Notes: generated by a model from the letters alone, not told the origin. A stretch of 64,000 nucleotides of DNA from Pomacea canaliculata (GCF_003073045.1 NC_037593.1:29329367-29393366), one strand, 5' to 3'. Shown: positions 1 to 61,696, numbered from the stretch's first letter. Translations and numbers: made by a program.

Positions 1-360
1 GGAGATAATCACATAGCAAGGGCAATGAAGATGTTGACAGCTTGAGTAACTGCCATTGTACTGACCATGAGCTGGCCCAGGATGTAATCCCGGACTAAAA
101 TGTGTATTAAATAAATACACTTTATGCAGTAATAAGTACAACGAAATAGACGCATACACTCACCCACCAACGGAATAAGAATAGACACAGACTCATGTCA
201 ACACATATAACTTCAAACTCTTGCGAACTTAAAAGGAAAGAGAATGAAGAAGTAAAGGACGAAAGATGAGGTAAAAGAGAAGGTCTGCTATAATGACCCG
301 CTTTTATCTCTGCTAAAACCTGCAAAATACATGATTCGGGAGAAAAGCACAATCACTAAC

Positions 361-687
361 AGTCGCCTTCGAAGAACAGGTCGAAGAAGTCATTGAACTC
401 CATGTCATGCACCACGTGGTCCTCGTTGCTCTTGAGGTGGTAGTAGTAGGACACGCACGTGTCTTTGGGGTTGCGGTACACGTGCACCACCTTTGTCCTT
501 CGCTCCTTCATCTCTTGCCATGGCAGCATGAAGACAGGCAGGTGTGAGTTGAGGAGTCGTGGGGACGGCACGGAGTCCAATTTGTCCAGCTCGATCGACT
601 CGACCATGAAGTGCTCCTTGGGACGAACATCATACTCAGCCTTCCCCTGCTTCAACATGGAGATCACCTCCCAGAGCCAGTGAGTTC
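361..687 (-). CDS. SULT-1 coding exon 2 (PSB loop to catalytic His to 3'-PB region)
   Basis: AG acceptor 'cctcag|GAACTCACTGG'. Encodes '(G)THWLWEVISMLKQGKAEYD..NSHLPVFMLPWQEMKERRTKVVHVYRNPKDTCVSYYYH..FFEGD(C)'. GTTAGT donor. 327 nt. Confidence 0.8.
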
Positions 688-1556
688 CTGAGGATGTCAT
701 TGAAACGTTTTATATGCCATGTAGGTGTCTATCATCAGGTTTAATGTATCTATATATTCATGTACGAATAAAGAAAAATTTACTGCTTTTGGCTTTGCGT
801 TCAATGTGGAAATCGACTACATCTTAAAATATGAAATGATAACACTTTATACTAAGTTGTAAACAGTACTAAAGACATCTGGCTAAGTAAGGTACGACAA
901 ATCGAGAATGTCTCAGATTGTAAAGGCGGATAGATGATTTAGTAATCATTGGTATATACTTAAGTCTTATATCTTTAAGCTGACAACAATGAGAAAGGTG
1001 CAGTTCACGATCTTGTTTGCTATGGTGAAGAGGGCATTTAAAATCTGGGTCTGTTCTTTACCCAACCTGTAAGTTTTTAGGTCAGAGATTCCTAATCATC
1101 TGTAATCTAGCAAGGGCACATCTCATTGTCCGCTCATTAACACGGTGCAGGTAGGGTCTATCGTGAAGTTCCGTTTTAAACAATGAACAGTTAGTAACAT
1201 ACCCATGCCAGTTCTAATTGTGACAACATACAAGACAATTAAAAACATGGAGGACTTGGAGCATATCTTCTTGTGATTACTTATCTTCAAACCTATATAT
1301 TCAATAAAATGGACAGTTAATTAACATTTTACGAAATACTTTTAAACCTTGTTTTTGTAAGTGTAATTGTACTGGTGCAGTTTGACCTGGTTATGCAAGG
1401 TGAATAGATGGCGATAGGTGATGATGGTTTCAAAATACATGTAAGTTATTGATATGTAAAGGTCTTTTGCACACTTCTGCCGCACTGATTTGATTTAAAA
1501 CACTTTCTTTACTATAGGCTGACACAGACACATACTTCACATACCACCATACACAC

Positions 1557-1797
1557 CTGCCTTAGGAAAGGCCAACACAAAGATGTCATCATCCCGAAGC
1601 GGTAGTTTGCGGAGAGCGGCAGCATGATCCTCCCAACTCTTTGGAGGACACTTTGCAGGAACTGGCCAACCCTCCAGAACATAGGAGAGAGGTCGAGGGT
1701 CTTGACCCCAGTAGATAAAGGATCCAGTCGGGGCTTCGTTCTGAGCATCAGCTGTGCTCTGGCCATCGGGAGCAGCCTCAGCCGACTGGAAAGACAT
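1557..1797 (-). CDS. SULT-1 (local label) cytosolic sulfotransferase, coding exon 1 of 5 (gene truncated by window start; exons 3-5 lie beyond position 1)
   Basis: ATG at 1797 (minus). Encodes 'MSFQSAEAAPDGQ..FIYWGQDPRPLSYVLEGW..LRDDDIFVLAFPKA(G)'. GT donor after split Gly codon (phase 1). Matches ORF 1537..1797. Confidence 0.75.
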
Positions 1798-3217
1798 GCC
1801 GGTATGTCTGCAGGTCCTGCTTCAGTGACAAAGAATAATTTCTCTCAGGTTTTAGTTCAACAATTATCTCGTGTTTATTCTCTCGACTCCTCTAAATGAC
1901 AAATAATTTGATAATAACTAAAGTTTATGAAACATACCTACCGCGTTCAAAAACTGCTGTAAATTATGTCTTGAAACCGCACCCTTTTCAGTAGAGGCTA
2001 GCAGATGTTAACCCTTTTGGGGAAACCATTCATGCGATTCAATCTCCGAAGACGATCCTCAGTTTAGGAGAGCAGTGTTGATGGGCATTAAATGCATGAG
2101 TAGAAGATAAACCACATGAATAAAATGTTGCCGGATGTTTTCGCTTGTTGGAGTCTGCGAATCAAATGGCTGGTCAAGAAACCCTTGATCGCTCACGTGA
2201 GCAGGCGAGCCTGCATACACACTGTGTCGCAATCGTGTCACATCCAGGCACGTGATTCTTTTAATATTGTATCGCACGTGATCATACAGTACCGATAGCA
2301 AAAACACAAATCATGTAACTTTATTCTTTACCTCTCTGATGTCACCTGATAAAGACTGCCAGGCCGTCACGTCAATCACGTGACTCAAACCACATCTCTC
2401 ACAACTTGCGGCTGACCTTTATCACCTTTGTCAACTCCATCACCAGTTTAGTGATGAATGTCAACTGCTGCTCTGTGCGCGCGCCATTGCGATGGGATGT
2501 CTTGTTTCTGTATTTTCGAGCGTTGATGAATGCAAGGTTTGTGGAGAGTTGTAGCACCATGCTAGCCAGGTAGCTGCACTGATTGTAGAAGATGTTCATC
2601 CGCTAAGCCGTCAATTCAATCAGCAAATAATCATCATCTTTTTCCTAACTTTCCCCAGTTTACTTTCCTGTCGCCTTGGTTATCTAGTTTCTGTCTGAGT
2701 GCAATAAACTATCTCAGCAAGCACATATCGGAGGGGATAGAAAACTGGTGTCTGAAACCAGAGGCGCACCGTTTCAAAACCCTTGTAGCACAGCAAACAT
2801 TCTCTCAATCGACACAGCTGTCAGAGATGGGCACACGACTTCACAGAGAGTTGAGGCAATAAGAAGAAGGAAAAGGCAACCGTTCTCACAAAAACAAGTC
2901 CCAAAGGAAAGTGAGTTGTCTAACATTTTCCTCCCCAAAAGATCGGAAGAGGATAGCAGGCAACCTTGATCATTTATACAACATTAGTACAGTCATCGTA
3001 GTAACCCTCGTCGCTGTTATCCTCATCATAAAGACACAGATTCATACAATTTTCGGATCATTTATTAACATTCGCTATGTGTCCATATATTTTCATCCAA
3101 TGCACTCCAATGTGTTCTGTCATGCGAGACACACGTTGTTAACCAACTGCATCAAACGCTCATATGAAATGAGTAAAGTTCGCGAGCGTTTGATGGAAAC
3201 CTATACCAGGTCATAGT

Positions 3218-3327
3218 TCACGAATATTGAAGAACATATGGCAATCCTTCCATCCGTTCTTTAATGATGGCGTCCATTTTTTCGCTCATGGCCACCGTGA
3301 AGTAGTTCTTCCAGTCTCCTATCTCCC
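3218..3327 (-). CDS. SULT-2 coding exon 5 (3'-PB '[13 protein letters not shown]' and C-terminus)
   Basis: '(G)[35 protein letters not shown]'. TGA stop at 3218-3220. 110 nt. Sum of exons = 984 nt = 328 codons. Confidence 0.8.
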
Positions 3328-3360
3328 CTTCAAGAATACAAGGATTGGGATATGGTTAGA

Positions 3361-3470
3361 GAGCATTACAAATTGACACACGCACACCGTCTCGCTCTCT
3401 GTCTCTCTTTCTCTCTCGCTCTCTCTCTCTCTGTCTCTTTCAACGCGCTTCGTATTCATCCACACAATTT
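3361..3470. repeat. Imperfect (CT)n/(CTCTGT)n microsatellite in SULT-2 intron 4
   Basis: 'cgtctcgctctctgtctctctttctctctcgctctctctctctctgtctctttc'. Confidence 0.8.
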
Positions 3471-3560
3471 CCTTGTGCGCTGACCGGTAAAAAAAAATTA
3501 TTTTAAAGTGCATTCATTGAGAAATATTTAGCATTTAATGCTGGCACAGCTGTGACTGAC

Positions 3561-3756
3561 CTTTTCGATAAAACTTGGAGTAATTTTTCTTCTTATCTCC
3601 ATCTTCATCTTTATCTGGAGGACGCACGGGCACTTTGAGTTCTGCCCCCTTCTTCAAGTTGTTGAAGCTGCAGGCGTCGGCGATCTCTTCACACAGAGAG
3701 TCGCTGACATTCAGCTCCAAGAAAACAGCCAGCTTCTTCACATTTTCAACAGGGTT
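3561..3756 (-). CDS. SULT-2 coding exon 4
   Basis: 'tctcatag|AACCCTGTTGAAAATGTG'. 'NPVENVKKLAVFLELNVSDSLCEEIADACSFNNLKKGAELKVPVRPPDKDEDGDKKKNYSKFYRK(G)'. GTCAGT donor. 196 nt. Confidence 0.8.
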
Positions 3757-4043
3757 CTATGAGATAACAACGAAAATATGTCAGCAATGAAATAAAGGGT
3801 TTCAGCAGCTTTAGACACGTGTAAAAATCCTGCTCTTGCCCAATGTCTTTCTTTGTGTGAACGAAATGACAAACGGATGTCGATGAACTTATATTACAAT
3901 ATTATTATTATACGTAGAAAAAGATATAAAAAAGATTTAAAACAAAACGAATATTGGCTCAGCAGACGTTAGGAATTTGTTTTAATTGTTGGATCATCAA
4001 CATCAGTCGTGTATGGGGGTGGGAGACTTGTACATGCACTAAC

Positions 4044-4147
4044 CTTTTTCATGTCTTCGAAAGACAATGACAGCATAGGCATATCTTTGTTCTCTACAGT
4101 GAATGTGAAAACTTGTTTAAGGTGCGTGAAGTAGTTGCCGTGGTTGC
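4044..4147 (-). CDS. SULT-2 coding exon 3
   Basis: 'tttccag|GC..' acceptor. '(C)NHGNYFTHLKQVFTFTVENKDMPMLSLSFEDMKK'. GTTAGT donor. 104 nt. Phase 1 to phase 0. Confidence 0.8.
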
Positions 4148-4566
4148 CTGGAAAGAGATAATATATAATCAATGAACAAACAACATCTGTCCTAGCCCTT
4201 TCTAGAAGTATCCGCGGCTTTAAGACCCAATGTGAAATATTTGACCAAGTTTGGAAACGCCTTTACATGGCGGTTATATCAAACACATGTGTTCTTTCAT
4301 GCGAGACGCACGTTAATAAAAATGTAAAAGTGTCATCTCGGAGCCTCAAGGAACAACTGTAAAAAAAAAAATGCTACAATAGGCAGCAACTACAGGTTCA
4401 TCTTGCTTACACTATAAGTGTAAACAAGTAAACAAAGAATGGAAAAGAGAGAGATTGAAAGGAGATATACACCAGTTACAAGAAATGTGTGGACTGAGCA
4501 CTCGCTAATATGACTGTTGCGGGAAGTAAACTATACCCATCAGGGAAAAGCAATATTATCACTAAC

Positions 4567-4893
4567 ATTCTTCTTGGAAGAACAGATCGCAGAAGTCCTT
4601 GAACTCCATGCCATGCACCACGTTGTCCTCGTTGCCACCGAGGTGGTGGTAGTAGGACACGCACGAGTCCTTGGGGTTGCGGTACACGAACACTACCTTC
4701 GTCCTTCGCTCCTTCATCTGTTGCCATGGCAGCATAAAGAAAGGCAAATGTGAGTTAAGGACTCGGGGGGAAGGCATGGAGGTCAGTTTGTCCAGCTCGG
4801 TCATCTCGACCATCAAATGCTCCTTGGGGCGAACATCATACTCAGCCTTCCCCTGCATCAGCATAGAGATCACCTCCCACAGCCAGTGAGTTC
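4567..4893 (-). CDS. SULT-2 coding exon 2
   Basis: Acceptor 'ctgcag|GAACTCACTGG'. '(G)THWLWEVISMLMQGKAEYDVRPKEHLMVEM..NSHLPFFMLPWQQMKERRTKVVFVYRNPKDSCVSYYHH..FFQEE(C)'. GTTAGT donor. 327 nt. Matches ORF 4562..4873. Confidence 0.85.
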
Positions 4894-5186
4894 CTGCAGT
4901 TGGAGTCGTCCCAACATTTTAATTCGTTGGACATCATTTCTTTGAACGGTGTATATATCATATATAATTCTTCTTAAAACACAGAAAAAAAGATATCTCC
5001 ATATTTTATATTTTCATGCTTTATTACTTGTTTAATGACTTTAAATTATAGTTTTGTTCGAGTTGCTATACAGAGCTACTTGAGGTAAAGCCACTTTACA
5101 GACCAGCTTTAGAATAAGCCACTAAAGAGACCTACTTTTGGATATACCAATATAGAAACCTGCTGTTAAAAGGTCTCTATACAAAC

Positions 5187-5433
5187 CTGCTTTAGGATAG
5201 GCTAACACAAAGATGTCATCATTTCGGAGAGGCAATCTACGAAGTGCGGTAATGTGAGCCTCCCAACTCTTTGAACCTCGACAGTGTGGGGGAAGAGCCC
5301 ACCCCTCAAGAATGTATGTGAAAGGTCGAGGGTCTTGACCTAGAAAGCGTAAGGTGCCAGCCGGGATGTCCTCCTTAGCATCAGCCTTGGTCTGGTCGCC
5401 TGAATCCTCCTCCTCCTTCTGAATGGAAGACAT
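5187..5433 (-). CDS. SULT-2 cytosolic sulfotransferase, coding exon 1 of 5
   Basis: ATG at 5433 (minus) 'MSSIQKEEEDSGDQ..FLGQDPRPFTYILEGWALPP..LRNDDIFVLAYPKA(G)'. GTTTGT donor. Phase 1. Confidence 0.75.
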
Positions 5434-7195: not shown

Positions 7196-7305
7196 TTATG
7201 AGTACTGGAGGATGTAAGGAAGGCCTTCCATCTGCTTCTCTATGAATGGGTCAACTCTTTCACTCATAGCTACTGTAAAGTAGTTTTTCCAGTCGCCAAT
7301 CTCTC
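7196..7305 (-). CDS. SULT-3 coding exon 5
   Basis: 'ttttcag|GAGAGATTGGCGACTGG'. '(G)[35 protein letters not shown]'. TAA stop at 7196-7198. Exon sum 993 nt = 331 codons. Confidence 0.85.
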
Positions 7306-7768
7306 CTGAAAATAAAAGAAGGAAAGACTGTATTACAGGCGATAGTTGTTAGGGGGACAGTTTCGTAGAGCATGTCTCAGGATCATTACTTCCAAACACG
7401 CAAACACACAAACACACTGAAGTAACACTAGAGGCAGACAAGCTCTTTTTCCAACCTTTTCTTCAGTGTCTGGTAATTTTGTGCATGTATGATGTTAAAA
7501 TTTTCACTCTTTTTCTAACTTTAAATAGTTCCGAAATGGCTCAGATTATCACCGACCATGTTTAATGATTTCTAATCAAGTGATAAGACTGTCAACGGTC
7601 GAAATTTTTTTCTCTCATTTCTCTTCTCTCTGTGTGTTTACGAGCGAGCACTTAGTCATTGACAAATTGTGTGTTTAATTGATGTGCTTCAAACGATTTT
7701 AAACATGTGACTCAAAGCAAAAACAAAACAAAAATAGAAATCCTTTCTACAATATCGCGCCCTCTGAC

Positions 7769-7982
7769 CTTTTCTGTAAGATCTTGAGTGTCTAGGTTTT
7801 CTTTGTTCGTCGCCATTGACTTCTCTGTTGGGATGATGATGAGGAGGATGGTCGCGGGTTTTGAACTCTGCATTCTTCTTCAGGTTCTCAAAGTTGCATG
7901 CCTCAGCAATGTCTTCACAAATCGCATCGGAAATGTCGATCTCCAGGAATTTTGCCAACTTCTTTACATTTTGTGCGGGGTT
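7769..7982 (-). CDS. SULT-3 coding exon 4 (contains His/Pro-rich variable linker)
   Basis: 'ctcag|AACCCCGCACAAAATG'. 'NPAQNVKKLAKFLEIDISDAICEDIAEACNFENLKKNAEFKTRDHPPHHHPNREVNGDEQRKPRHSRSYRK(G)'. GTCAGA donor. 214 nt. Verified by hand translation. Confidence 0.85.
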
Positions 7983-8229
7983 CTGAGAAGAATACAGGAA
8001 TGAGGAGGTCATGTATGTTATTAAAGAATGGATTTTAGCTAGGGAATATTTCAAAATATATTTAAGCGTAGTGTGATTTAATACGCTATTATTCAAAGGC
8101 ATTGCAGAAATTAAATCTACACTGACATTTCAGGTACATAATAAAAATAAAACATAAAAATAAAAAAGTAATAAGTAAAATTTCTTTAAATTGTGGATAA
8201 TATTATTTATGGTTAAACTGTGAACTAAC

Positions 8230-8333
8230 CTTTTTCATGTCTTCAAAAGACAGAGAAAGTATAGGTACATCTGGATTGTCTCGAGTGAATGCATACATTT
8301 GCTTCATGTACTCGAAGTAGTTGTCAAAGTGTA
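8230..8333 (-). CDS. SULT-3 coding exon 3
   Basis: 'gtttcag|TACACTTTGACAAC'. '(L)HFDNYFEYMKQMYAFTRDNPDVPILSLSFEDMKK'. GTTAGT donor. 104 nt. Confidence 0.8.
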
Positions 8334-8624
8334 CTGAAACAGGGAAATAACTCATGTGAGTAAAACTGCATCACTTAGAAAAATTACCTCCCTTAAATAG
8401 CGTAGTCACTGTGGCTAATCAGCTGTGAGCCTACAGAAAAATACACAGCAATACTTATAAAATGTAACTCGACAGGAGAAATATAATACAGCCATCAGCA
8501 AGAGAGAAAACATAGGAAGAATGTTATAAATGTAACTATAGTCGTGTGCCCTGTATTGTTTTAAAAGTTTAGTCACGTGAAACATGAATGAATCATACAG
8601 AAATATGCAGAAAACCATGCCCAC

Positions 8625-8951
8625 ACTTTCCGTAGAAGTACAGCTCCAGATAATCGCTGAAGACCATGTCATTGAACAAGTCGCCATCTCTTCCTTTCAT
8701 GTGATGAAAATATGACACACACGAATCTTTGGGATTTCGGTACACGTGTAGCACCTTTGACCTTTTCTCCTTTATCTGCTTCCATGGTAACATGGAGAAC
8801 GGTAGGTGTGAGTTGAACATCCTGGGGGAGGGGATTTGCTGTAGTTTGTCAAAGTCACTGAACTCCATCATCAACTGTTCCTTAGGACGACTGTCGTACT
8901 CGGCTGTGCCCCGCACCAGCATAGACAGCACCTCCCACAGCCAGTGAGTGC
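8625..8951 (-). CDS. SULT-3 coding exon 2
   Basis: 'ttcccag|GCACTCACTGG'. '(G)THWLWEVLSMLVRGTAEYDSRPKEQLMMEF..NSHLPFSMLPWKQIKEKRSKVLHVYRNPKDSCVSYFHHMKGRDGDLFNDMVFSDYLELYFYGK(C)'. Donor GTGGGC (weak). 327 nt. Confidence 0.8.
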
Positions 8952-9185
8952 CTGGGAAGTTAATAAAATCGTTATTTTATAATCTTTCCCTTTTTCATAG
9001 TGGCATTCATCTAGAATGGTGGAATTAGTAGCTTTACCCCCGCATTAGAAAAATAATTGCTCCCTAGTACTCATTTAAAGGATGATCAAAAACGAGAAAT
9101 AGAAGGGAGCCTATACGGTTTGCTGGGAAGGAGGGAAGAAAGTAGTAGGTCAAGCAGAACGACGACACGACAAGGACTCACGCAC

Positions 9186-9423
9186 CTGCCTTAGGATAGG
9201 CGCAGAGGAAAATGTCGTCGTCACGGAGCTGCAGAGAACGAAGGTTAGCGATGTGAGTCTCCCAACTCGTCAATCGTGGACGTTTCGGGGGGAGTGCCCA
9301 TCCTTCGAGGGTATAATTCAAAGGCCGAGGATCGTCTCCGAGAAAGTTCAAACTTCCAGTCTCGCCAATGAAAGCCTCAGATCCTGTGTCGTCTGCTAGC
9401 TTCTGCGGATTTTCTGACGCCAT
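9186..9423 (-). CDS. SULT-3 cytosolic sulfotransferase, coding exon 1 of 5
   Basis: ATG at 9423 (minus) 'MASENPQKLADDTGSEAFIGETGSLNFLGDDPRPLNYTLEGWALPPKRPRLTSWETHIANLRSLQLRDDDIFLCAYPKA(G)'. GTGCGT donor. Matches ORF 9178..9423. Confidence 0.8.
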
Positions 9424-12223: not shown

Positions 12224-12333
12224 TTAGGAGTATTGTAAAATGTAGGGAAGGCCCTCCATCTTTTCCTCTATGAGGGGATCCACTCTTTCGTTCATTTCTG
12301 CTGTGAAGTAGTTCTTCCAATCCCCGATTTCTC
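12224..12333 (-). CDS. SULT-4 coding exon 5
   Basis: 'ttctag|GAGAAATCGGGGATTGG'. '(G)[35 protein letters not shown]'. TAA stop at 12224-12226. Exon sum 996 nt. Confidence 0.85.
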
Positions 12334-12707
12334 CTAGAAAAAAGTGAAGCAAAGATACTGTGGATTTTATACAAATGGATACATATTTTTTATTTCTTAA
12401 TTATATTTTTACTCTCTCACACTCACACGCACGCACACACACACTCACACGCACGTACGCACACATTCATATATATATAAATACACAACATTTATTCACT
12501 CACTCCAACTCCCATATCCAAATTTATCTACCTATTGGTGGTTTTGCGCAAAGTATTTTGTTAATAGGAGTATGATTAGATTCTACCCTAGAATGTAACA
12601 CCTCTTCACTTCAACTTTCATATCTTTCTTCGTGTTTTTGTGTTGAGAAGGCTTCTTTAAAGTACACAGGATTAAGAAAATTTCTGTAATTTGTCACCTT
12701 GTCTCAC

Positions 12708-12939
12708 CTTTTCTGTAAGCTTCAAAGAAAGGTTTCTTCTTGTCATCGTGTTTTAAATCTCCATGGGAGGTAGGTGTTGAAGGAGGAGTTGGAGGATGAG
12801 GAAAAGGAGGATGTTTCTTAAGTTCCGCATTTATCTTCAAGTTCTGGAAACTACAAGCTTCGGCGATGTCTTCACAAATTTCATCGGAGAGGTCTGTTTC
12901 CAGGAATTTGGCCAACTTTTTCACGTTTTGTACAGGATT
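12708..12939 (-). CDS. SULT-4 coding exon 4 (longest variant of the Pro-rich linker)
   Basis: 'ttttcag|AATCCTGTACAAAACGTG'. 'NPVQNVKKLAKFLETDLSDEICEDIAEACSFQNLKINAELKKHPPFPHPPTPPSTPTSHGDLKHDDKKKPFFEAYRK(G)'. GTGAGA donor. 232 nt. Confidence 0.85.
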
Positions 12940-13281
12940 CTGAAAACTCAGGAAAAGAATACCCATTAAAACGATGAATTACTTGTAAATGTGTTTCTAA
13001 AAATTATCCTTTATTGTTTGGCTTGGCTGTGACTTGAGTGAGGTTTGTCTACTAAGTTTGTTATGACAGGAATGTTTGTATTTGTAATGTAACTTGTTCC
13101 TGGACGAAAAGTGTGGGCTTTTGGGATTATGACAAAGTCAGGTAAGCGTATACACAACCAAATATACACTGCTAAAACTCCTTGAGTATTATTTTCAAAA
13201 TGATTTTGTCAATACTCATGTCGCAGGAAAATAATACCCTTACAAGTTCTGTGAATTATTTTTAAAAATCTGAAAATAAAC

Positions 13282-13385
13282 CTTCTTCATGTCCTCAAAT
13301 GACAGCGACAGAAAAGGTACGTCTGGGTTCTCCAGCGTAAAGGTGAGTACTTGTTTCAGATGTTCAAAATAATTGCCAGAGTCCA
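13282..13385 (-). CDS. SULT-4 coding exon 3
   Basis: 'gtttcag|TGGACTCTGGCAATTATTTTGAACATCTGAAACAAG..'. '(M)DSGNYFEHLKQVLTFTLENPDVPFLSLSFEDMKK'. GTTTAT donor. 104 nt. Confidence 0.8.
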
Positions 13386-13900
13386 CTGAAACATATTACA
13401 AAATTATAAAATTATTGGAAAATGAGCCAGATTTGTTGATATTCTGAATTTTTTGTTTATTTCCCACATGTCTATTTTCGATCCCTTGATCCTCTCCACG
13501 CCCCTACCCCCTCTCAAATAAAAACTTTGTGCTCAACTGAGAACACTCAGGCTTGTGTGCAGTTTCATGGTTAATATGAATGATATCGAAATTATTGTGG
13601 AAATAAGTGATTAAGTTATTCGCGCATTCGTTTATTCATTATACGGCCCATTGCTCTTTTATTTCTCGGTTAGTTATGTAAAGAATCAAGATTAGTATGC
13701 CTGTCATTTGATCATAATGCGAAAAGACGAAGGTAGACAGACATAAGCTGTTCAAGAAAAGATAAAAAGCAACACTTCAAGATTATAATTATGATGGAGA
13801 TTAATAATAAAACAAATTAAAGAAAAATATCATGTTATTTAAGGAATACAGGCCACAATCATAAAATATGTTTTTTGAAAGCTCAACTATAAAGTCTCAC

Positions 13901-14212
13901 TTTTTCCGTAGAAAAACAATTCAAAATAATCACTGAAGTCCATGTTTCTAAATCCCTTCATGTGATGATAATACGACACACACGAGTCCTTGGGGTTTCG
14001 GTACACGTGTAGCACCTTTGACTTCTTCTCCTTCATTTGTTTCCATGGTAACATAAAAAATGGCAGGTGTGAGTTGAAGATCCTAGGGGAAGGCGTTTGT
14101 TCCAGCTTCTCAAGATCGCTCATCTCCATCATCAACTGTTCTTTAGGGCGGTCATCGTACTGAGCTTTGCCCTGGAGCAGCATGGACAGCACCTCCCACA
14201 GCCAGTGAGTTC
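13901..14212 (-). CDS. SULT-4 coding exon 2 (312 nt, 5 codons shorter than most paralogs)
   Basis: 'gccatag|GAACTCACTGG'. '(G)THWLWEVLSMLLQGKAQYDDRPKEQLMMEM..NSHLPFFMLPWKQMKEKKSKVLHVYRNPKDSCVSYYHHMKGFRNMDFSDYFELFFYGK'. GTGAGA donor. Confidence 0.8.
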
Positions 14213-14539
14213 CTATGGCAACACAACACAATGTTTACACATCGATACATTCCTCTGTGATGTTTAAGTGTTTTTCATCAAGAAGACCTTAGCCAATCAC
14301 CAGAAGCTATTTTTTTTTTTGTGTGAAAAATTCATGTAACAGTAAGACTTGGGACCAGACTATGAAGATCTGAAGGTACAGCAGTGTATATATATATATC
14401 AACCTTTGCCAGTAGGTAAACCGGTGTAGTATTCTCACAATAAGACTAAAGGATGCAAGAATTGATAAAGTGGTGGAATCAAGACAGCGAGATAAAAGAA
14501 AGAAAGAGGAAATGACAGGTGAATCAGCAATGCCCCGAC

Positions 14540-14777
14540 CTGCTTTTGGGTAAGCAAGGAGAAAGATGTCATCGTCACGGAGCTCAAGTGAACGGAGACC
14601 TGCGATGTGAGTCTTCCAGTTCGTCGAGCGAGGACCTCTCGGAGGGAGGTCCCATCCTTCGAGAACATAGGGCTTATGTCGAGGGTCGTCTCCGGGGAAG
14701 GACATGGTTCCAGTTTTGTTTGGCGCAGAGTCTGATTCAGTGTTTTCTGCCAGCTTCTCGGGTTCTTCTGTCGCCAT
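14540..14777 (-). CDS. SULT-4 cytosolic sulfotransferase, coding exon 1 of 5
   Basis: ATG at 14777 (minus) 'MATEEPEKLAENTESDSAPNKTGTMSFPGDDPRHKPYVLEGWDLPPRGPRSTNWKTHIAGLRSLELRDDDIFLLAYPKA(G)'. GTCGGG donor. Confidence 0.8.
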
Positions 14778-16610: not shown

Positions 16611-18056
16611 CGCGAGGGGTTAGAATGTAGCACAGTTCGTGTTCACCTCCGCGGCCAACTGTTTCCCTGGCTTGTGTAACCGCCAACGGTGTTGACCGAG
16701 AACCCCCTGACCCCGCCTTCCTGCCTCTCGATGACGTCATGAGAGTAGAGGTCAGGGGGCAGGAAGTAGAACAGAGCAGACAGAAAGTACATGTAAGTTG
16801 TTTCTCCGTCACTTACCAGCTAATGCTGTCAATTATGCAGCATTCAAACAATTACCATGCTGCATTTCGACACAGATTATTTGTACTACAGTAGAAAAGG
16901 GATAAAATATGTACTTTTGTCGAATAGTGTTTAAACAAAGTAGCAAGATAGATATTCATTTAAAACTGTCCAATCAAGTCGAATGAAATAAAAAAAACTA
17001 TTTCTAACCTGGAATTTTCTGAATGCGTGTATTTATAAATTCTTCTCATTGTAAACAGTTGAGATGTTGAAGGAGGGGTGGGGAACATCAGGTGATATTC
17101 TCATATTCTCATCTTTTCTGTCTTCTAGCAAACTCATTGAGTGAAACAAACAATCTGAATCGGGAATATTCGCTGAGAGGTGGCGGGCTCACCCACAAGG
17201 GAGATAACAATGTTAATTAACTGTTATCATTTCAAAATGGCGGCGGGCTTCTCAAGAACCTCTTACAGATTGTATGCCTAGGACAATAGAGTGCTTTTTC
17301 AGATATGTTCCTGCCACAGAGCTAGAGTTTCAATGAACTATTAATTATCGTCCTGAGAGGATTATTTCCGTCAGGTCTCCCGCCTGAAGTATACACCACT
17401 AGTTAAAAACATGTGATCATTAGCTAACGGGTACAGACTGGGTTTTCAACTTATCTGTTTGCATAAAGTGTGAAAAAGTTCTCAGTGGGCAGAGACTGGA
17501 TGAAGAAATTACCTGTTAACGGTTTGAAATCAGTTTGTCAAACGGTTGTTTCTCTGGCAGTTGTGCCTCGGTATGACTGCAGCACTGTTTAAACTTTGTC
17601 TCCTGTGTTTATAATTGTTTATTTGTAGATATTGTCATTAATATTGAGCCAAACTGCAGCTAAGATTTGAGAGCTTAAATATTTCAGAAGAAATATAGTT
17701 ACATCACAGTCATTATGTTCGTGGTAAATGTGTGACTGGAATTACGATCAGGGTAGTGTATTCTGGTATGTTCTTAGACTGCTTTGATCAAGTACAAACT
17801 ACATGTACCCGTGTCACCAGGCTAAAATTGAACAAACGGTAACGACTTCAGTGCACCAGCTCTGGTTTCTGCTTCAGGAGTACATGAGTTCTTTAAGACT
17901 GAAATGAAATCATGGTAAGACTGGGATTTACTCTCCTCCTAATAGCTTTCATGTGGGGTGAATAGAACACAGTACTAGCAACCACCCGACAAACCTTTAG
18001 CTCATTAGTTCCGATTTTACACACACGACATCGAACGATTCTTTCAGGAAATCAAA

Positions 18057-18294
18057 ATGGCGGCGGAAGAGCCACAGAAGCAGGTGGACGACACTTTGTC
18101 TGGAACCACGCCTGGACAGGCTGGAACTTTGAACTTTGTAGAAGGTGAAACTCAGCCTGTGAGCTACATTCTGGAAGGATGGGCTCTCCCTCCAAAGATG
18201 CCCCGCGTGACGAGCTGGGAAACTCACATCGCAGGACTTCGCTCCCTTCAGCTCCGTGAAGATGACATCTTCCTCTGTGCTTACCCCAAGGCAG
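18057..18294 (+). CDS. SULT-5 cytosolic sulfotransferase, coding exon 1 of 5
   Basis: ATG at 18057 'MAAEEPQKQVDDTLSGTTPGQAGTLNFVEGETQPVSYILEGWALPPKMPRVTSWETHIAGLRSLQLREDDIFLCAYPKA(G)'. GTTGGT donor at 18295. Confidence 0.85.
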
Positions 18295-18489
18295 GTTGGT
18301 GCACCCTTTGTTTGAGGCAAAGTTGTATTGCATTATGGGTACGTTTCCTGTTCTTAGTGTATTCTTCTCTTTGGCTTTTCTTAAAGGTCACTTTACTTTT
18401 CAAAATTATGATAAGATCATGAGAAAGTTTACTGGTTGACCAGTGCTTGAAGGCAAATGTTGATAAATATTATGGCTAAAATTTATGTC

Positions 18490-18730
18490 GAGACTGAAGC
18501 CTGTGTACATTTTCTCTTTTTGGTTTTGTTTTGCCTTTGTTTGTTTTTCTGTTTTGTTTGTTTGTTTGTTTGTTTTTTTGTGGTTTTTTTGTTGTTGTTG
18601 TTTTTGGTTTTTTTGTGGGGGGGGGGTTGTTTGTTTTTTGGCGTTTTGTTTGTTGGGGTTGGTTTTTTTTGTTGTTTCGTCTTGTTTTTTGGTTTTTTTT
18701 CTCTGTTTGTATGTGTGTGTGTGTGTGTTA
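18490..18730. repeat. GT-rich low-complexity microsatellite ((GTTT)n, (GTTTT)n, G10, (GT)n) inside SULT-5 intron 1
   Basis: 'ttttgttttgcctttgtttgtttttctgttttgtttgtttgtttgtttgttttttt..gtgggggggggg..gtatgtgtgtgtgtgtgtg'. Produces the spurious K/Q-rich ORF 18406..18747 on the minus strand. Confidence 0.85.
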
Positions 18731-18937
18731 CTTAACAGACAGCTCATAGTTTCTTCTTAATGAGAATGATTCAGTAGTAAGTAATGAAGACCGAAGACAA
18801 TACAGCATGGCATCGTCTCATGGTTAGATATAAAATTACAACCACATTACTAAATGAACCAAAGAAAAATACTTCAAAGGTCACAGAAGAATGTCAGAAG
18901 AATGTATCATTGTGTAAACATGTTTACGTTGCCATAG

Positions 18938-19264
18938 GAACTCACTGGCTGTGGGAAGTGCTGTCCATGCTGCTACAGGGCAAGGCTCAATACGATAACC
19001 GTGTTAAGGAACAGTTGATGATGGAGATCAGCGACCTAGACAAACTGGAACAAACGCCTTCCCCTAGGATCTTCAACTCGCACCTGCCATTTTTTATGTT
19101 ACCATGGAAACAGATGAAAGAGAAGAAGTCAAAGGTGCTACACGTGTACCGAAATCCCAAGGACTCGTGTGTGTCGTATTATCATCACATGAAGGGATTT
19201 AAACACGACATATTCCACAACATGGCCTTCGATGAGTATTTCGAACTGTTTTTCTATGGAAGAT
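18938..19264 (+). CDS. SULT-5 coding exon 2
   Basis: 'gccatag|GAACTCACTGG'. '(G)THWLWEVLSMLLQGKAQYDNRVKEQLMMEI..NSHLPFFMLPWKQMKEKKSKVLHVYRNPKDSCVSYYHHMKGFKHDIFHNMAFDEYFELFFYGR(C)'. GTGAGT donor. 327 nt. Confidence 0.85.
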
Positions 19265-19498
19265 GTGAGTGACACAGTTTGTAAATATTTTGTTTAATGC
19301 TATTGTTACCGCTTCTCTCCCTTTTTTAAATAATTAAGTCTTTTTTCTATCAAAAGGTTTTATTCTGTTTTAATATTTTTCATGTTCTTTCTTCTGAGAT
19401 TATTTGTATTTGGTTTGGAATGGTTTTAACAATATTTATCCTTCACTTTTTAACGCAGTTTTTATCATGTTTATGATGGAAGGAAGGAATGTTTTCAG

Positions 19499-19602
19499 TG
19501 CACTTTGACAACTATTTTGAGCATCTCAAGCAAGTACATAAATTTACTCAGGAAAATCCAGATGTGCCACTGTTGTCTCTGTCATTTGAAGACATGAAGA
19601 AG
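19499..19602 (+). CDS. SULT-5 coding exon 3
   Basis: 'gttttcag|TGCACTTTGAC'. '(L)HFDNYFEHLKQVHKFTQENPDVPLLSLSFEDMKK'. GTTAGT donor. 104 nt. Confidence 0.85.
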
Positions 19603-19913
19603 GTTAGTCTTTCACCTTAAAATGTTTACTTAGTCAGATTAAAATAGTAAGAAATAGACTTCTGAAACATGAATATTGACAAAAACTCCTTTTCAATTTT
19701 TTTTTCATCTCTGTGAGGATTTTAAGTGGTCATCTTTTTACTTGTCTGCTATAGTACAGAAGTAGCTACCTGTCAATCTTTATGCTTTATATTAAAATTA
19801 TCTGTCACACAAGGTTGAATTTTTTGCTCTTTTCGTGTCAGAACGAGAAAAGTAAACAATACTAATATGCTGTAGAACAGTTTTTATTCCTTGGTATTTT
19901 GTTATTGTTTTAG

Positions 19914-21723: not shown

Positions 21724-21777
21724 CTGGAGCATCAGTAAATGATCTTCAGAATTATTTCAAATGTTCGCATACACACA

Positions 21778-21802: not shown

Positions 21803-21834
<32 letters not shown>

Positions 21835-58850: not shown

Positions 58851-58960
58851 TCACGAATACTGTATGACATAGGGCAGGTCTTTCAACTCTTTCTCCACGA
58901 CTGCGTCCATCTGCTCGCTCATGGCCACAGTAAGATAGTTCTTCCAGTCGCCCACCTCTC
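58851..58960 (-). CDS. SULT-11 coding exon 5
   Basis: 'gttccag|GAGAGGTGGGCGACTGG'. '(G)[35 protein letters not shown]'. TGA stop at 58851-58853. Exon sum ~921 nt. Confidence 0.8.
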
Positions 58961-59175
58961 CTGGAACACAAACATACAAAGATTCATTACATCAGGTAGA
59001 TGATAAATCAAACAGGACTTTTTTCTTCATTTTGGATGATATGTTGAAAAATTTATGTCTCGCCATATTGTAACACACTGAGGAAGGTTATTTTTAAAAT
59101 ACCGACAGTCTTCAAAATTTGTCCTTTTTACCATAGTGTGATAGCATTGACAAGTAGCACAATATCCATAATTAC

Positions 59176-59362
59176 CTTTTCTGTACATATTCATCTTTCT
59201 ATGTGGAATATTTTTGCTTTTGGTAAATTCTGGAATGGCTTTCTTCTCATCCTGTTTCTTCATGTTCTGGAAGCTGCAGGCCTCTGCGATTTCTTCACAC
59301 AGTTGCTGTGATGCTGGAACTTCCAAAAACTCAGCAATCTGCTTTACTTTATCTGAGGGACT
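59176..59362 (-). CDS. SULT-11 coding exon 4
   Basis: 'tttttcag|AGTCCCTCAGATAAAGTAAAGCAG'. 'SPSDKVKQIAEFLEVPASQQLCEEIAEACSFQNMKKQDEKKAIPEFTKSKNIPHRKMNMYRK(G)'. GTAATT donor. 187 nt. Confidence 0.8.
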
Positions 59363-59558
59363 CTGAAAAACAAGTTTTATGCAAATATAGACACAATCTA
59401 AATACTAATTCTATATTTGACAAACCACTTGAAAGAGATGTAGACCTAATAAATTCAAATCTCTAAAATATCTCAGAATGGAACCAGAGAATACTGATGC
59501 CTGTTGTCAAGACAAAATTGTGTAAATTGTATCAGAGATTTGCAGTGGCCTTACAAAC

Positions 59559-59662
59559 CCGTTTCATATCTTCAAAGGAGATGGATAATATAGGAATGTT
59601 CGGATTTTCTTGGGTAAAATCGTGAAACTGCCGCAAGTAACTGAAGTAAGCACCATAGTTGA
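59559..59662 (-). CDS. SULT-11 coding exon 3
   Basis: 'tgtttcag|TCAACTATGGTGCTTACTTC'. '(x)NYGAYFSYLRQFHDFTQENPNIPILSISFEDMKR'. GTTTGT donor. 104 nt. Confidence 0.8.
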
Positions 59663-59905
59663 CTGAAACAGAACAAAATGTACAATCCCTTTATTATTGT
59701 AAGTCATCGAATGGAAAGATGAGACAGACAGGGACAGAGAGGGGAAGGCCAAGAAGCAGATACAGAAAGAGTGTAATCAACGTGTAGAACATACCTGTAC
59801 ACATACACACATATATGTGACAAGGGGCAGATAATTTCTGCTGTAAAAGTTACTCGTTTGCTCCCCTTTTTATGCAAAAAAAAATAATAAATCATATTTG
59901 CTTAC

Positions 59906-60223
59906 CTTTGCCATCTAAGAATCGTTGAAAAAATTCTGAAAATTCAACGAATGTATTGAAAAGGTTCTTTTGCATGAAGTAGAAGGATACAACAGTGTCC
60001 TTAGGATTGCGATAAACATGAAGGACCTTGACACGCTTGTCTCTGATCTGTTGCCACGGCAACATAGAAAACGGAAGATGCGTATTGAGGATGCGCGGAG
60101 ACGCCATGGCCGCTACCATGTCCACGTCGACAAAGTCGACCATCAGCTGTTCCTTGCGACGAGTCTCGTACTCGGCCTTGCCTTGCAGCAACATGGAGGT
60201 CACCTCCCACAGCCAGTGAGTTC
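59906..60223 (-). CDS. SULT-11 coding exon 2 (318 nt)
   Basis: 'ttggtcag|GAACTCACTGG'. '(G)THWLWEVTSMLLQGKAEYETRRKEQLMVDFVDVDMVAAMASPRILNTHLPFSMLPWQQIRDKRVKVLHVYRNPKDTVVSFYFMQKNLFNTFVEFSEFFQRFLDGK(G)'. GTAAGC donor. Confidence 0.8.
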
Positions 60224-61300
60224 CTGACCAACAGATATGGACACAGAGTGAGTTGTTGACTAACAAAGATGGACACGCCTAATTAATTCGACATACCGCA
60301 AAATGGGGTTCATATCTCCCACAATAGCCATCTGTCGCAGTCTTGGTCAATGTAACAGGTTAACAATAGTCCTTCCCTCCACAGCAAAAGTTTCTTTTAA
60401 TCACTGAAGATTTCCATGCATACAACCTCAGCTCCATCTCATTGAAGTGAGGGAGGGATCCAAGGGTTAAATTTGTTAATTTTAAAGAGTGGATCTTTTG
60501 TATAAAGAATTTTTTTTTTATTTTGAAGGAATTGGTGGCTGTCAACTATGTGAGGTTCAGTCCTTGCGAGCAGACGGCTGCCATGTCGATTTAAAGCTTG
60601 CCCGTTGTATTTGTGATTGATGCAGATATAGGAACTTTTAAACAAGATTCTAAAGCCAAAACCTTTCTTATCTGATAGTTGATAAAGGCTTTCTTGCACA
60701 CCCACGTGTGTGTGGTGGTGGTGGTGGTGGTAGGAGACAGGTACAGCCATTATGTCCTGCCCCACTTTGCCAGAGCTTTGAAGTACAAGCCGTCTGCTCC
60801 ATGTTCTACATTTTGACCTGTTCATGAAATGTTTTTATTACCCCACCTTCTGATCTTTTCTGGCGTGTTTCATCAGAAAGGCATTACCATTTGTGATTTT
60901 GCTCTCTCTCTCTCCCTCCTTCTCGTGTATGTGTGTATGAATATTTAGGCCCTCGTTATATTTTTAATCAAGAACAAGGGGTGTGCTTATCAAATGAGTT
61001 CGTGCAAACAAGTGTTTGCCAGCAAGCATTCGTGTAAAGGTGAGAAAAATGTGAGGCAATTGTTAGAACTACAGCGAGTAAATCTGCTGAACAGCAGTGG
61101 TCGTGGGTTACCAAATTAAACCTCAGCCTCTTTCTGATCATAGTCAGACGTCTCTCACCTTATTCTGATATCTGTTATTTCCCCCATCAACCTGAGTCCT
61201 ATCTCTCTCTCTCTCTGACCTCTTTCACATCACATCATACTTCACATCAATCTCATCCCTCTCACTACAGTCTGACCCCTCTCAGAGTCGGACATCTTAC

Positions 61301-61502
61301 CTGTTTTGGGGTAGGTACACAGCAGGATGTCATCGTGTCGAAGCTCCATGTTGCGCAGATCATCGATGTGTTTCTCCCACTCCTCTTTGTTAAATCGGAA
61401 ACTGGGCAGAGGAATACCTTCTACCAGCCAGTAAATTGGATCAAGCTTGCCATCTTTCTCGTTTTCCATCTTGAAAGAGCTGTTGTGTTCCTGGCTTGTC
61501 AT
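61301..61502 (-). CDS. SULT-11 cytosolic sulfotransferase (subfamily III), coding exon 1 of 5
   Basis: Probable ATG at ~61502 (minus) 'MTSQEHNSSFKMENEKDGKLDPIYWLVEGIPLPSFRFNKEEWEKHIDDLRNMELRHDDILLCTYPKT(G)'. GTAAGA donor. The ORF track extends upstream to ~61559 with a non-ATG start, so the start is uncertain by 1-2 nt and up to 57 nt. Confidence 0.65.
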
Positions 61503-61696
61503 TCCACCTGAAGCAACGGTCGGGACTGCACTGACAGCGACGAAATTATCTAGTGTCACGCTTATGTTTGTTTAACAATTTACCTCTGGGAGACCCTTTA
61601 AATATTTTCTTTCGTCTGCTATCGGCAGTGTCTGTCCTGTGACTGCTGAAGGCCGTGCGAGAGCATTTTTATAGGTGTCAAGTTATGGGAGGAGTG

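What the first reader, a model, noticed from the sequence alone, without database searches (positions are those of the whole stretch)
1..61559. Tandem array of at least 11 cytosolic sulfotransferase (SULT) paralogs with a strictly conserved 5-exon architecture
Eleven gene copies, one truncated at the window edge, share intron positions and phases: phase 1 inside the Gly codon of the 5'-PSB 'YPKAG|THW' loop, phase 1 after exon 2, phase 0 after '..SFEDMKK', and phase 1 inside the Gly of 'YRKG|E.GDWKNYFT'. Every complete model has summed exon lengths divisible by 3 and ends with a stop after '..QYS'. The catalytic His (S/THLPF), 3'-PB Arg/Ser (YRNPKD..VS.Y) and the RKGxxGDWKNxFT motif are all retained, so all copies look functional. 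Eleven SULTs within 62 kb is a very dense, lineage-specific expansion of a phase-II conjugation family.
Basis: partly seen in the sequence, partly recalled or inferred. Interest (0 to 1): 0.7.

Follow-up and report, generated by a model that had tools for sequence, protein, structure and literature searches.

The report
Apple snail sulfotransferase gene cluster
This window of the golden apple snail (Pomacea canaliculata) genome holds eleven intact, already-annotated genes for cytosolic sulfotransferases, a dense but ordinary example of the detoxification-enzyme family expansions known from molluscs and other invertebrates.

Summary
The window contains 11 cytosolic sulfotransferase (SULT) genes, 10 complete and one cut by the left edge. 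All share five coding exons, intron phases 1/1/0/1 and 41 of 41 GT-AG introns. There are no internal stops, and all PAPS-binding and catalytic motifs are present. All ten complete proteins hit PF00685 (E 1e-52 to 1e-58). The nearest solved structures are SULT1B1 and SULT1C2, and a predicted structure of one copy has the SULT fold.

Three corrections are needed:
- The genes lie on both strands (- - - - + - - + + + ... -), so this is a cluster, not a head-to-tail array.
- One copy ends QYSN*, not QYS*.
- At least one more paralog lies outside the window.

The source is Pomacea canaliculata. Every model equals a RefSeq XP_ protein, exactly or up to start-codon choice, so the genes are already annotated. 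The paralogs are old (57-77% amino-acid identity, dS 0.6 to saturated) and under purifying selection (dN/dS 0.1-0.3). They form two Pomacea-only clades in a neighbour-joining tree and are collinear in a roughly 93%-identical relative. Variation is concentrated in the substrate-gating loops.

Larger SULT expansions are published (scallop 83 genes, ticks about 200). Verdict: real, correctly read, already known, low interest. Side notes: exon-2 gene conversion, chimeric public isoform models, and an 8 kb perfect (CTCA)n repeat.

The parts
1..1797 (-). c01: SULT paralog cut by the window edge. Exon 1 is 1797-1557 and exon 2 is 687-361. Exons 3-5 lie beyond position 1.
   Evidence: tblastn; splice model. 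The two exons match residues 1-189 of RefSeq XP_025092658.1 (P0131, 325 aa, full length).
3218..5433 (-). c02: exons 5433-5187, 4893-4567, 4147-4044, 3756-3561, 3327-3218 (327 aa). There is an alternative in-frame ATG at 5475.
   Evidence: Equals XP_025090218.1 (P0003). PF00685 E 6.5e-56.
7196..9423 (-). c03: exons 9423-9186, 8951-8625, 8333-8230, 7982-7769, 7305-7196 (330 aa).
   Evidence: Identical to P0004. PF00685 E 2.7e-52.
12224..14777 (-). c04: exons 14777-14540, 14212-13901, 13385-13282, 12939-12708, 12333-12224 (331 aa). It has the longest, Pro-rich cap loop, and its dimer motif is altered (KNYFTAEMNE).
   Evidence: Identical to P0005. PF00685 E 8.1e-54. AlphaFold model pLDDT 84 with the SULT fold.
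16739..16792 (+). Alternative upstream 5' exon of c05. It encodes MRVEVRGQEVEQSRQKVH of RefSeq isoform X1.
   Evidence: tblastn of P0134 (XP_025090204.1), 18/18 residues; ORF listing.
18057..20457 (+). c05: exons 18057-18294, 18938-19264, 19499-19602, 19914-20130, 20348-20457 (331 aa). It has GDWRN, and its dimer motif is altered (RNYFTETLNE).
   Evidence: Equals RefSeq isoform X3 (P0133, 331 aa). Isoforms X1 and X2 add N-terminal residues from upstream exons. PF00685 E 3.2e-54.
21614..23417 (-). c06: exons 23417-23171, 23010-22684, 22382-22279, 22125-21930, 21723-21614 (327 aa).
   Evidence: Identical to P0002 / XP_025090222.1. PF00685 E 1.8e-54.
25394..27469 (-). c07: exons 27469-27223, 26836-26510, 26105-26002, 25874-25688, 25506-25394 (325 aa). 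It ends QYSN*.
   Evidence: Identical to XP_025090229.1. PF00685 E 2.6e-56. Ortholog dN/dS 0.15.
30567..32758 (+). c08 (group B): exons 30567-30765, 31277-31603, 31995-32098, 32283-32463, 32649-32758 (306 aa).
   Evidence: Identical to P0007 / XP_025090231.1. PF00685 E 7.6e-58.
33645..35451 (+). c09 (group B): exons 33645-33819, 33953-34285, 34488-34591, 34935-35112, 35342-35451 (299 aa).
   Evidence: Identical to P0008 / XP_025090232.1. PF00685 E 8.2e-56. Ortholog dN/dS 0.15.
38256..40829 (+). c10: exons 38256-38502, 38989-39315, 40044-40147, 40319-40514, 40720-40829 (327 aa).
   Evidence: Identical to XP_025090227.1. The GenBank model PVD32859.1 reads through intron 4. PF00685 E 1.1e-55.
58851..61502 (-). 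c11 (group B): exons 61502-61301, 60223-59906, 59662-59559, 59362-59176, 58960-58851 (306 aa).
   Evidence: Identical to P0009 / XP_025090233.1. PF00685 E 1.2e-56.

Best explanation
The window is a stretch of a Pomacea canaliculata chromosome carrying a multigene cluster of cytosolic, PAPS-dependent sulfotransferases of the SULT1-like kind. The cluster arose by repeated local duplication, with inversions, of one five-coding-exon ancestral gene. This gave two old subfamilies: group A (c01-c07 and c10) and group B (c08, c09, c11, plus one paralog outside the window).

Shown here: each copy keeps the machinery for binding the sulfate donor PAPS and for catalysis. This comprises the PKxGTHW 5'-phosphosulfate loop, the catalytic His in (S/T)HLP, the RNPKD..VS 3'-phosphate motif and RKGxxGDW(K/R)N. 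The copies differ mainly in the N-terminal tail, the segment after RNPKD..VS, and the loop just before YRKG.

Inferred from what is known of vertebrate SULTs: the loop before YRKG is the active-site 'cap' (loop 3) that gates the acceptor. The cluster would therefore encode a panel of enzymes with one shared chemistry (sulfonate transfer from PAPS to hydroxyl or amine acceptors) and different acceptor ranges. Their most likely role is phase-II conjugation of dietary and environmental small molecules and of endogenous phenols and amines.

Also shown: the copies have been kept under purifying selection, and some have exchanged exon 2 by gene conversion.
For: Organism and annotation:
- The best protein hits are P. 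canaliculata proteins on one 34.7 Mb contig.
- The models are identical to RefSeq proteins.

Family:
- PF00685, E 1e-52 to 1e-58, for 10 of 10 proteins.
- Solved SULT1B1, 1C2 and 1A1 structures match at E 1e-35 to 1e-39, with alignment across the motifs.
- The c04 model has pLDDT 84 and pTM 0.82. All top Foldseek hits are cytosolic SULTs, with TM (normalised to target length) 0.70-0.86.
- There is no hydrophobic anchor: the maximum 19-residue Kyte-Doolittle score is 1.14.

Gene structure: phases 1/1/0/1, exon 3 of 104 nt, 41 of 41 GT-AG introns.

Age and constraint:
- Paralogs share 47-77% amino-acid identity.
- dS is 0.57-0.79 for the youngest pairs and saturated for the rest. dN/dS is 0.09-0.34.
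- DNA similarity between copies is confined to exons.
- Contigs from a relative are collinear at 92.6-93.9% identity. Their exons carry no indels or stops, and dN/dS is 0.15.

Where the copies differ:
- The paralog alignment shows invariant motifs and hypervariable stretches, including the pre-YRKG loop. Exon 4 varies from 178 to 232 nt.
- That loop is the low-confidence, non-helical segment of the model, residues about 260-295.

Phylogeny: two Pomacea-only clades with bootstrap support 100 and 98.

Functional hint: a Bellamya aeruginosa transcript whose best hit is 'sulfotransferase 1A3-like isoform X2 [P. canaliculata]' (the RefSeq name of c05) is up-regulated on exposure to toxic cyanobacteria (PMC9958990).

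Precedent: expanded SULTs are tied to toxin handling in scallop (PMC5700196) and to detoxification in ticks (PMC11752866).
Against: - No transcript, protein or enzyme data could be examined, so expression, activity and substrates are inferred for every copy.
- c04 and c05 have lost the KxxxTVxxxE dimer motif.
- c07 has a shifted stop codon.
- c10 exon 1 shows dN/dS of about 1.3 against its ortholog, though on only 5 differences.
- The tree is neighbour-joining, built on the hits of one query, and may be distorted by the exon-2 gene conversion.
- A xenobiotic role as opposed to an endogenous role is not distinguished by any result here.
Confidence: 0.9

Rival explanations
1. Several of the eleven copies are unexpressed or decaying duplicates, so the functional repertoire is much smaller than eleven.
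For: Expression was not testable here. c07 has a shifted stop. c04 and c05 have lost the dimer motif. For c07, exon and non-exon substitution identity to the relative's contig are similar, 96.75 against 96.56%.
Against: All ORFs are intact despite dS of 0.57 up to saturation between the paralogs. Such old pseudogenes would carry stops and frameshifts. All 41 splice sites are canonical. dN/dS is 0.15 for c07 and c09 against their orthologs, with 0 gap columns in exons against 113-120 in non-exon sequence. RefSeq models exist for every copy, some with several 5' UTR variants.
Confidence: 0.08
2. The copy number is an assembly artefact, such as uncollapsed haplotypes or mis-joined repeats.
For: The same window holds a suspicious 8,004 bp perfect (CTCA)n block, which shows that the assembly may have local problems.
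Against: The copies share only 47-77% amino-acid identity, and their introns and intergenic DNA do not align with each other. Haplotigs would be more than 95% identical throughout. Independent short-read-derived contigs from another sample are collinear across c09 to c10 and across c07.
Confidence: 0.02
3. The enzymes mainly serve endogenous metabolism, such as inactivation of catecholamines, thyroid-like or steroid-like signals, or sulfation of pigment or egg-defence metabolites. Xenobiotic conjugation would then be secondary.
For: The closest solved relatives include SULT1A3 (dopamine), SULT1E1 (estrogen) and SULT1B1. The family is defined by fold, not by substrate, so sequence cannot decide between the two roles.
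Against: Endogenous-signal SULTs are usually kept as one or a few conserved orthologs. Here there are 11-12 lineage-restricted paralogs that diverge in the acceptor-gating loop. That is the pattern of environmental-response families. A homolog is induced by cyanotoxin exposure in a related snail.
Confidence: 0.25

Closest known systems
Vertebrate cytosolic sulfotransferases of the SULT1 family (human SULT1B1, SULT1C2, SULT1A1; PF00685)
   Same: The domain, fold and all PAPS-binding and catalytic motifs are the same. The KxxxTVxxxE dimer motif is present in most copies. From memory, not tested: the coding exons of human SULT1A1 are 148/126/98/127/95/181/113 nt. That would put four of its six coding introns at the same positions and phases as the four snail introns: the Gly of PKxG at phase 1, after ..G(E/K) at phase 1, before NP.. 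at phase 0, and the Gly of RKG at phase 1.
   Different: Protein identity is only about 30-35%. The PSB loop reads GTHW instead of GTTW, which is the common state in 79 of the 130 sequences compared here (10 window models plus 120 hits), covering molluscs and other taxa. The N-terminal tail is longer. The snail genes have five coding exons against seven, so snail exon 2 corresponds to human exons 3-5 fused. There is no one-to-one orthology to any vertebrate SULT subfamily, so the RefSeq '1B1-like', '1A1-like' and '1A3-like' names are best-hit labels only.
SULT expansion in the scallop Chlamys farreri (83 genes; PMC5700196)
   Same: It is a molluscan, lineage-specific expansion of cytosolic SULTs linked to toxin handling.
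   Different: It is much larger and has expression data (induction in the kidney by toxic algae). The Pomacea cluster is smaller and has no functional data here.
SULT expansion in ticks (about 130-200 genes; PMC11752866)
   Same: It is an expansion of a phase-II family, partly by tandem duplication into clusters of adjacent copies.
   Different: In ticks many copies are mono-exonic retrocopies. All Pomacea copies here keep the same four introns, so they arose by DNA-level segmental duplication, not by retroposition.
Human SULT1A cluster on chromosome 16p (PMC555591)
   Same: It consists of locally duplicated SULT paralogs.
   Different: The human copies are recent low-copy repeats that are nearly identical, including their introns. 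The snail copies are old, and only their exons are alignable.

Membership tests
Cytosolic sulfotransferase (SULT; Pfam PF00685 Sulfotransfer_1) | Full-length match to the PF00685 profile above the gathering score (22 bits) | tested here: met
   Scores of 178-196 bits and E 1e-52 to 1e-58, covering profile positions 1-2 to 253-254 of 255, for all ten complete proteins.
Cytosolic sulfotransferase (SULT; Pfam PF00685 Sulfotransfer_1) | 5'-phosphosulfate-binding loop PKxGT.W with the catalytic Lys | tested here: met
   PK(A/T)GTHW in all 11 copies. THW instead of TTW is the majority state among the homologs.
Cytosolic sulfotransferase (SULT; Pfam PF00685 Sulfotransfer_1) | Catalytic base His in the (T/S)HLP motif | tested here: met
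   N(S/T)HLP in all copies. The His is invariant in the 61-sequence alignment (H128 of c04).
Cytosolic sulfotransferase (SULT; Pfam PF00685 Sulfotransfer_1) | 3'-phosphate-binding Arg and Ser (RNPKD..VS) and the C-terminal RKGxxGDWK motif | tested here: met
   YRNPKD(S/T).VS and YRKGE.GDW(K/R)N in all copies. For c01 the second motif is taken from its full-length RefSeq protein.
Cytosolic sulfotransferase (SULT; Pfam PF00685 Sulfotransfer_1) | KxxxTVxxxE dimerisation motif | tested here: met
   Present in c01, c02, c03, c06, c07, c08, c09, c10 and c11. Absent in c04 (KNYFTAEMNE) and c05 (RNYFTETLNE).
Cytosolic sulfotransferase (SULT; Pfam PF00685 Sulfotransfer_1) | SULT alpha/beta fold | tested here: met
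   The c04 model has pLDDT 84 and pTM 0.82. The top 50 Foldseek PDB hits are all cytosolic SULTs. Only one copy was modelled.
Cytosolic sulfotransferase (SULT; Pfam PF00685 Sulfotransfer_1) | Soluble protein with no signal anchor, unlike Golgi sulfotransferases | tested here: met
   The maximum 19-residue Kyte-Doolittle hydropathy is 0.48-1.14, below the usual 1.6 threshold, and the N-termini are hydrophilic. No dedicated signal-peptide predictor was available.
Cytosolic sulfotransferase (SULT; Pfam PF00685 Sulfotransfer_1) | PAPS-dependent sulfonate transfer to a small-molecule acceptor | not testable with these tools
   This needs recombinant enzyme assays.
Tandem (head-to-tail) gene array | All copies in the same orientation at regular spacing | tested here: not met
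   The strands are - - - - + - - + + + -. Gaps between genes are 0.9-3.3 kb, then 18 kb before c11. It is a cluster formed by local duplication with inversions.
Lineage-specific expansion | The window paralogs are each other's closest relatives to the exclusion of other species' genes | tested here: met
   In the NJ tree, group A has bootstrap support 100 and group B 98, and both clades are Pomacea-only. The nearest outsiders are Batillaria and Babylonia. Caveats: other species were sampled from one group-A query, the method is neighbour-joining, and gene conversion is present. The duplications predate the split from a roughly 93%-identical relative.
Expressed, correctly spliced genes | Transcript evidence for the junctions | not testable with these tools
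   There is indirect support only: the models are identical to RefSeq models, some of which have alternative 5' exons. The Logan members of the clusters are unspliced genomic ORFs.

The most novel reading that the evidence does not exclude
Because all paralogs share a phase-1 intron at the same Gly codon, exon 1 of one gene can be spliced in frame onto exons 2-5 of a downstream neighbour. Public models already contain such chimeras. RefSeq XP_025090230.1 is c08 exon 1 joined to c09 exons 2-5. GenBank PVD32857.1 is c05 exon 1 joined to c08 exons 2-5. If these are real transcripts and not predictor artefacts, part of the cluster would work as a variable-first-exon unit, as UGT1A does. That would add combinatorial N-terminal diversity to a SULT locus, which to my knowledge has not been described for SULTs.
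Probability: 0.08. Interest if true: 0.45.

Novelty: already known. Interest (0 to 1): 0.13.

Why it matters
The finding adds little beyond confirmation. All eleven genes are already in RefSeq with sulfotransferase names, and much larger SULT expansions have been published for scallops and ticks. For people working on the golden apple snail, a major invasive crop pest, the cluster is a defined and compact target. It offers 11-12 conjugation enzymes whose substrate loops differ, which may bear on tolerance to plant defence compounds, cyanotoxins or molluscicides. The corrected gene models also show that the GenBank (PVD) annotation of this region fuses or truncates several genes.

Tried and rejected
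None was on record, so the chromosome beyond the window could not be read. The positions of the extra paralogs P0010 and P0021 remain unknown.
- A search for extra SULT fragments or pseudogenes with all ten proteins at E<10. Nothing was found outside the 11 loci.
- Other genes in the window. Ten of the long stop-to-stop ORFs outside the SULT genes, including the five longest, gave no Pfam hit. There were no Rfam families or tRNAs.
- The idea that GTHW in the PSB loop is an unusual substitution. Rejected, because 79 of 130 sequences compared have it.
- A first tree run with Biopython bootstrapping timed out. It was redone with a custom distance and NJ bootstrap.
- Literature searches for a description of this Pomacea cluster. 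None was found. Only general precedents turned up.
- Haplotig or assembly duplication as the source of the copies. Rejected on divergence.

Full report
**What is in the sequence**

A six-frame motif scan and a tblastn search with one hand-assembled copy locate eleven sulfotransferase-like loci between positions 1 and 61502. No further fragments were found. I derived splice sites independently, by scanning GT/AG pairs compatible with the reading frames on each side and scoring the junction peptides. Two genes were corrected by hand.

All ten complete genes have five coding exons. Intron 1 splits the Gly codon of PK(A/T)G|THW at phase 1. Intron 2 is phase 1 after ..G(K/R). Intron 3 is phase 0 after SFE(D/E)MK(K/R). 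Intron 4 splits the Gly of YRKG at phase 1. Exon 3 is always 104 nt, and exon 5 is 110 nt (113 in c07). All coding sums are multiples of three, there are no internal stops, and 41 of 41 introns are GT-AG. The eleventh gene (c01) has exons 1 and 2 in the window and continues past position 1.

- c07 ends QYSN*, not QYS*.
- The genes are on both strands (- - - - + - - + + + then -). This is a cluster with inversions, not a head-to-tail array.
- c11 is separated from c10 by 18 kb that includes an 8,004 bp perfect (CTCA)n block.

**Identity**

All ten complete proteins match Pfam PF00685 end to end at E 1e-52 to 1e-58. The nearest solved structures are human SULT1B1 and SULT1C2 (E about 2e-39), followed by SULT1A1, 1A3, 1E1 and 2A1. 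An AlphaFold model of c04 (pLDDT 84, pTM 0.82) finds only cytosolic SULT structures.

Every copy has the PSB loop, the catalytic His, RNPKD..VS and RKGxxGDW(K/R)N. No copy has a hydrophobic anchor. The GTHW form of the PSB loop is the majority state among the sequences compared and is not a peculiarity of these genes.

**Source and prior knowledge**

The top protein hits are Pomacea canaliculata proteins, all on one 34.7 Mb contig. My models are byte-identical to public proteins for c03, c04, c06, c08, c09 and c11. They are also identical to XP_025090227.1 for c10 and XP_025090229.1 for c07. c02 and c05 differ only in start codon or 5' exon choice, and c01 matches the first 189 residues of XP_025092658.1. 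So all eleven genes are already annotated in RefSeq as 'sulfotransferase ...-like'.

The GenBank (PVD) annotation is worse. PVD32859.1 reads through intron 4 of c10. PVD32855.1 fuses c02, c01 and three EF-hand genes. That fusion also indicates that the genes following c01 beyond the left edge of the window are EF-hand genes, not further SULTs. At least one more paralog lies outside the window: XP_025090203.1, the sister of c11.

I found no paper in the searchable library that describes this cluster. Larger SULT expansions are published, however. There are 83 genes in the scallop Chlamys farreri, against 26-31 in oysters and 13 in human, linked to toxin transformation (PMC5700196). There are about 130-200 in ticks (PMC11752866).

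**Evolution**

The paralogs share 47-77% amino-acid identity. Synonymous sites are saturated for most pairs. The youngest pairs have dS of 0.57-0.79 and dN/dS of 0.2-0.34, and all measurable pairs have dN/dS at or below 0.34. DNA similarity between copies is confined to exons and a few tens of bases of flanking intron. The duplications are therefore old and occurred at the DNA level, with the introns kept.

An NJ tree with 200 bootstraps gives two Pomacea-only clades. Group A is c02-c07 and c10, with bootstrap support 100. c01 was not in the tree; it is assigned to group A because its full-length RefSeq protein is 76% identical to c02. Group B is c08, c09, c11 and XP_025090203.1, with bootstrap support 98. 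Single Batillaria and Babylonia sequences lie nearest. This supports a lineage-restricted expansion. The caveat is that the other species were sampled from the hits of one group-A query.

Three genomic contigs from other sequencing runs (Logan SRR34434959, SRR31200914 and SRR34434926; species not stated) are 92.5-93.9% identical to the window. The two longer ones are collinear with it across c09 to c10 and across c07. In them, exons have no indels or stops and dN/dS is 0.15, while non-exon sequence carries 113-120 gap columns. The cluster therefore predates that split and is under current constraint.

**How it most likely works**

The following is shown. The PAPS-binding and catalytic core is invariant across the copies. 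Variation is concentrated in the N-terminal tail, in the segment after RNPKD..VS, and above all in the loop before YRKG. That loop varies in length (exon 4 is 178-232 nt) and is Pro/His-rich in c03-c05. It is the low-confidence, non-helical part of the c04 model.

The following is inferred from established knowledge of vertebrate SULT structures. That loop is the active-site cap that gates acceptor access. On this reading the cluster is a panel of enzymes with one chemistry and different acceptor ranges, as in phase-II conjugation families.

There is one hint of a xenobiotic role. In the related snail Bellamya aeruginosa, a transcript whose best hit carries the RefSeq name of c05 is induced by toxic cyanobacteria (PMC9958990). 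Expression, activity and substrates of the Pomacea genes themselves were not testable here.

**Comparison with known gene structures**

This comparison is from memory and was not tested. The human SULT1A1 coding exons (148/126/98/127/95/181/113 nt, summing to 888 nt, or 295 codons plus the stop) would place four of its six coding introns at the same positions and phases as the four snail introns. Snail exon 2 would then equal human exons 3-5 without the two internal introns. If that is correct, the 'strictly conserved architecture' is mostly ancestral bilaterian SULT structure and not a feature of this cluster.

**Things noticed on the way**

- Exon 2 has 2-5 times lower synonymous divergence than the other exons in three pairs: c04/c05, c06/c10 and c08/c11. 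All three pairs are in inverted orientation (Fisher p 0.002, 0.006 and 1.6e-6). The control pairs show no such drop. The similarity extends a few tens of bases into the flanking introns. This reads as exon-2 gene conversion.
- Public isoform models join exon 1 of one paralog to exons 2-5 of a downstream one. This is possible because of the shared phase, but may simply be a predictor artefact.
- The 8 kb perfect tetranucleotide repeat may be real or an assembly product.
- No other gene, Rfam family or tRNA was detected in the window.

**Verdict**

The finding is real and was read correctly. It is a known, annotated gene cluster of a well-understood family, in a phylum where such expansions are documented. 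Interest is low.

Noticed in passing
window 41339-49342: A perfect (CTCA)x2001 tetranucleotide repeat: 8,004 bp, 100% matches, no indels, unique flanks. It is either a giant microsatellite or a long-read assembly or polishing artefact. It sits in the 18 kb gap between c10 and c11.
   Followed up: partly
exon 2 of c04 (14212-13901) / c05 (18938-19264); c06 (23010-22684) / c10 (38989-39315); c08 (31277-31603) / c11 (60223-59906): Synonymous divergence in exon 2 is 2-5 times lower than in the other exons of the same pairs: dS 0.35 vs 0.91, 0.37 vs 0.82 and 0.19 vs 0.92 (Fisher p 0.002, 0.006 and 1.6e-6). Control pairs show no drop. All three pairs are in inverted orientation. This looks like exon-limited gene conversion. 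The similarity extends 15-45 nt into the flanking introns.
   Followed up: partly
c08 exon 1 (30567-30765) with c09 exons 2-5 (33953-35451); c05 exon 1 (18057-18294) with c08 exons 2-5 (31277-32758): Public protein models are chimeras of neighbouring paralogs. RefSeq XP_025090230.1 is c08e1 + c09e2-5. GenBank PVD32857.1 is c05e1 + c08e2-5. They are in frame because all copies share the phase-1 intron 1. Whether this is real intergenic splicing or a predictor artefact is not known.
   Followed up: no
c04 (12333-12224) and c05 (20348-20457), exon 5: The KxxxTVxxxE dimerisation motif, conserved in the other copies, is changed to KNYFTAEMNE and RNYFTETLNE. These two enzymes may not form the usual SULT dimer.
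   Followed up: no
c03-c05 exon 4 (7982-7769, 12939-12708, 19914-20130): The loop before YRKG is expanded and Pro/His-rich, for example HPPFPHPPTPPSTPTSHGD in c04. It is predicted to be disordered, with pLDDT below 50 at residues 276-285 of c04.
   Followed up: partly
window 16739-16792 (+): An upstream alternative first coding exon of c05 (MRVEVRGQEVEQSRQKVH), used by RefSeq isoform X1. The genes therefore have more than five exons once 5' exons are counted.
   Followed up: partly
c10 (38256-40829); c02 and c01 (1-5475): The GenBank WGS annotation is faulty here. PVD32859.1 reads through intron 4 of c10 (…YRKGQFYYLTKLYK*). PVD32855.1 (1053 aa) fuses c02, c01 and three EF-hand genes that lie left of the window.
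   Followed up: yes
c06/c07 exon 5 and the end of intron 4 (21614-21783, 25394-25566); c11 exon 5 (58960-58851): c06 and c07 are 91% identical in exon 5 and 78% identical in the last 60 nt of intron 4, against 75-81% in the other exons. The off-window paralog XP_025090203.1 matches c11 exon 5 at 35 of 35 residues but is only 82% identical overall. These are further signs of local sequence exchange.
   Followed up: no
L001 (SRR34434959), L002 (SRR31200914), L003 (SRR34434926) vs window 33963-38638, 37550-38546 and 29448-25479: Genomic contigs from other sequencing runs are 92.5-93.9% identical to the window, and the two longer ones (L001, L003) are collinear with it across several kb. They probably come from a sister Pomacea species or a very divergent haplotype. 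The species is not identified.
   Followed up: partly
window 50977-51148, 53038-53269, 37257-37351: Minisatellite arrays (periods 58, 24/49/73 and 31-32 nt) lie in the non-coding stretches. There is no coding or RNA-family signal around them.
   Followed up: no
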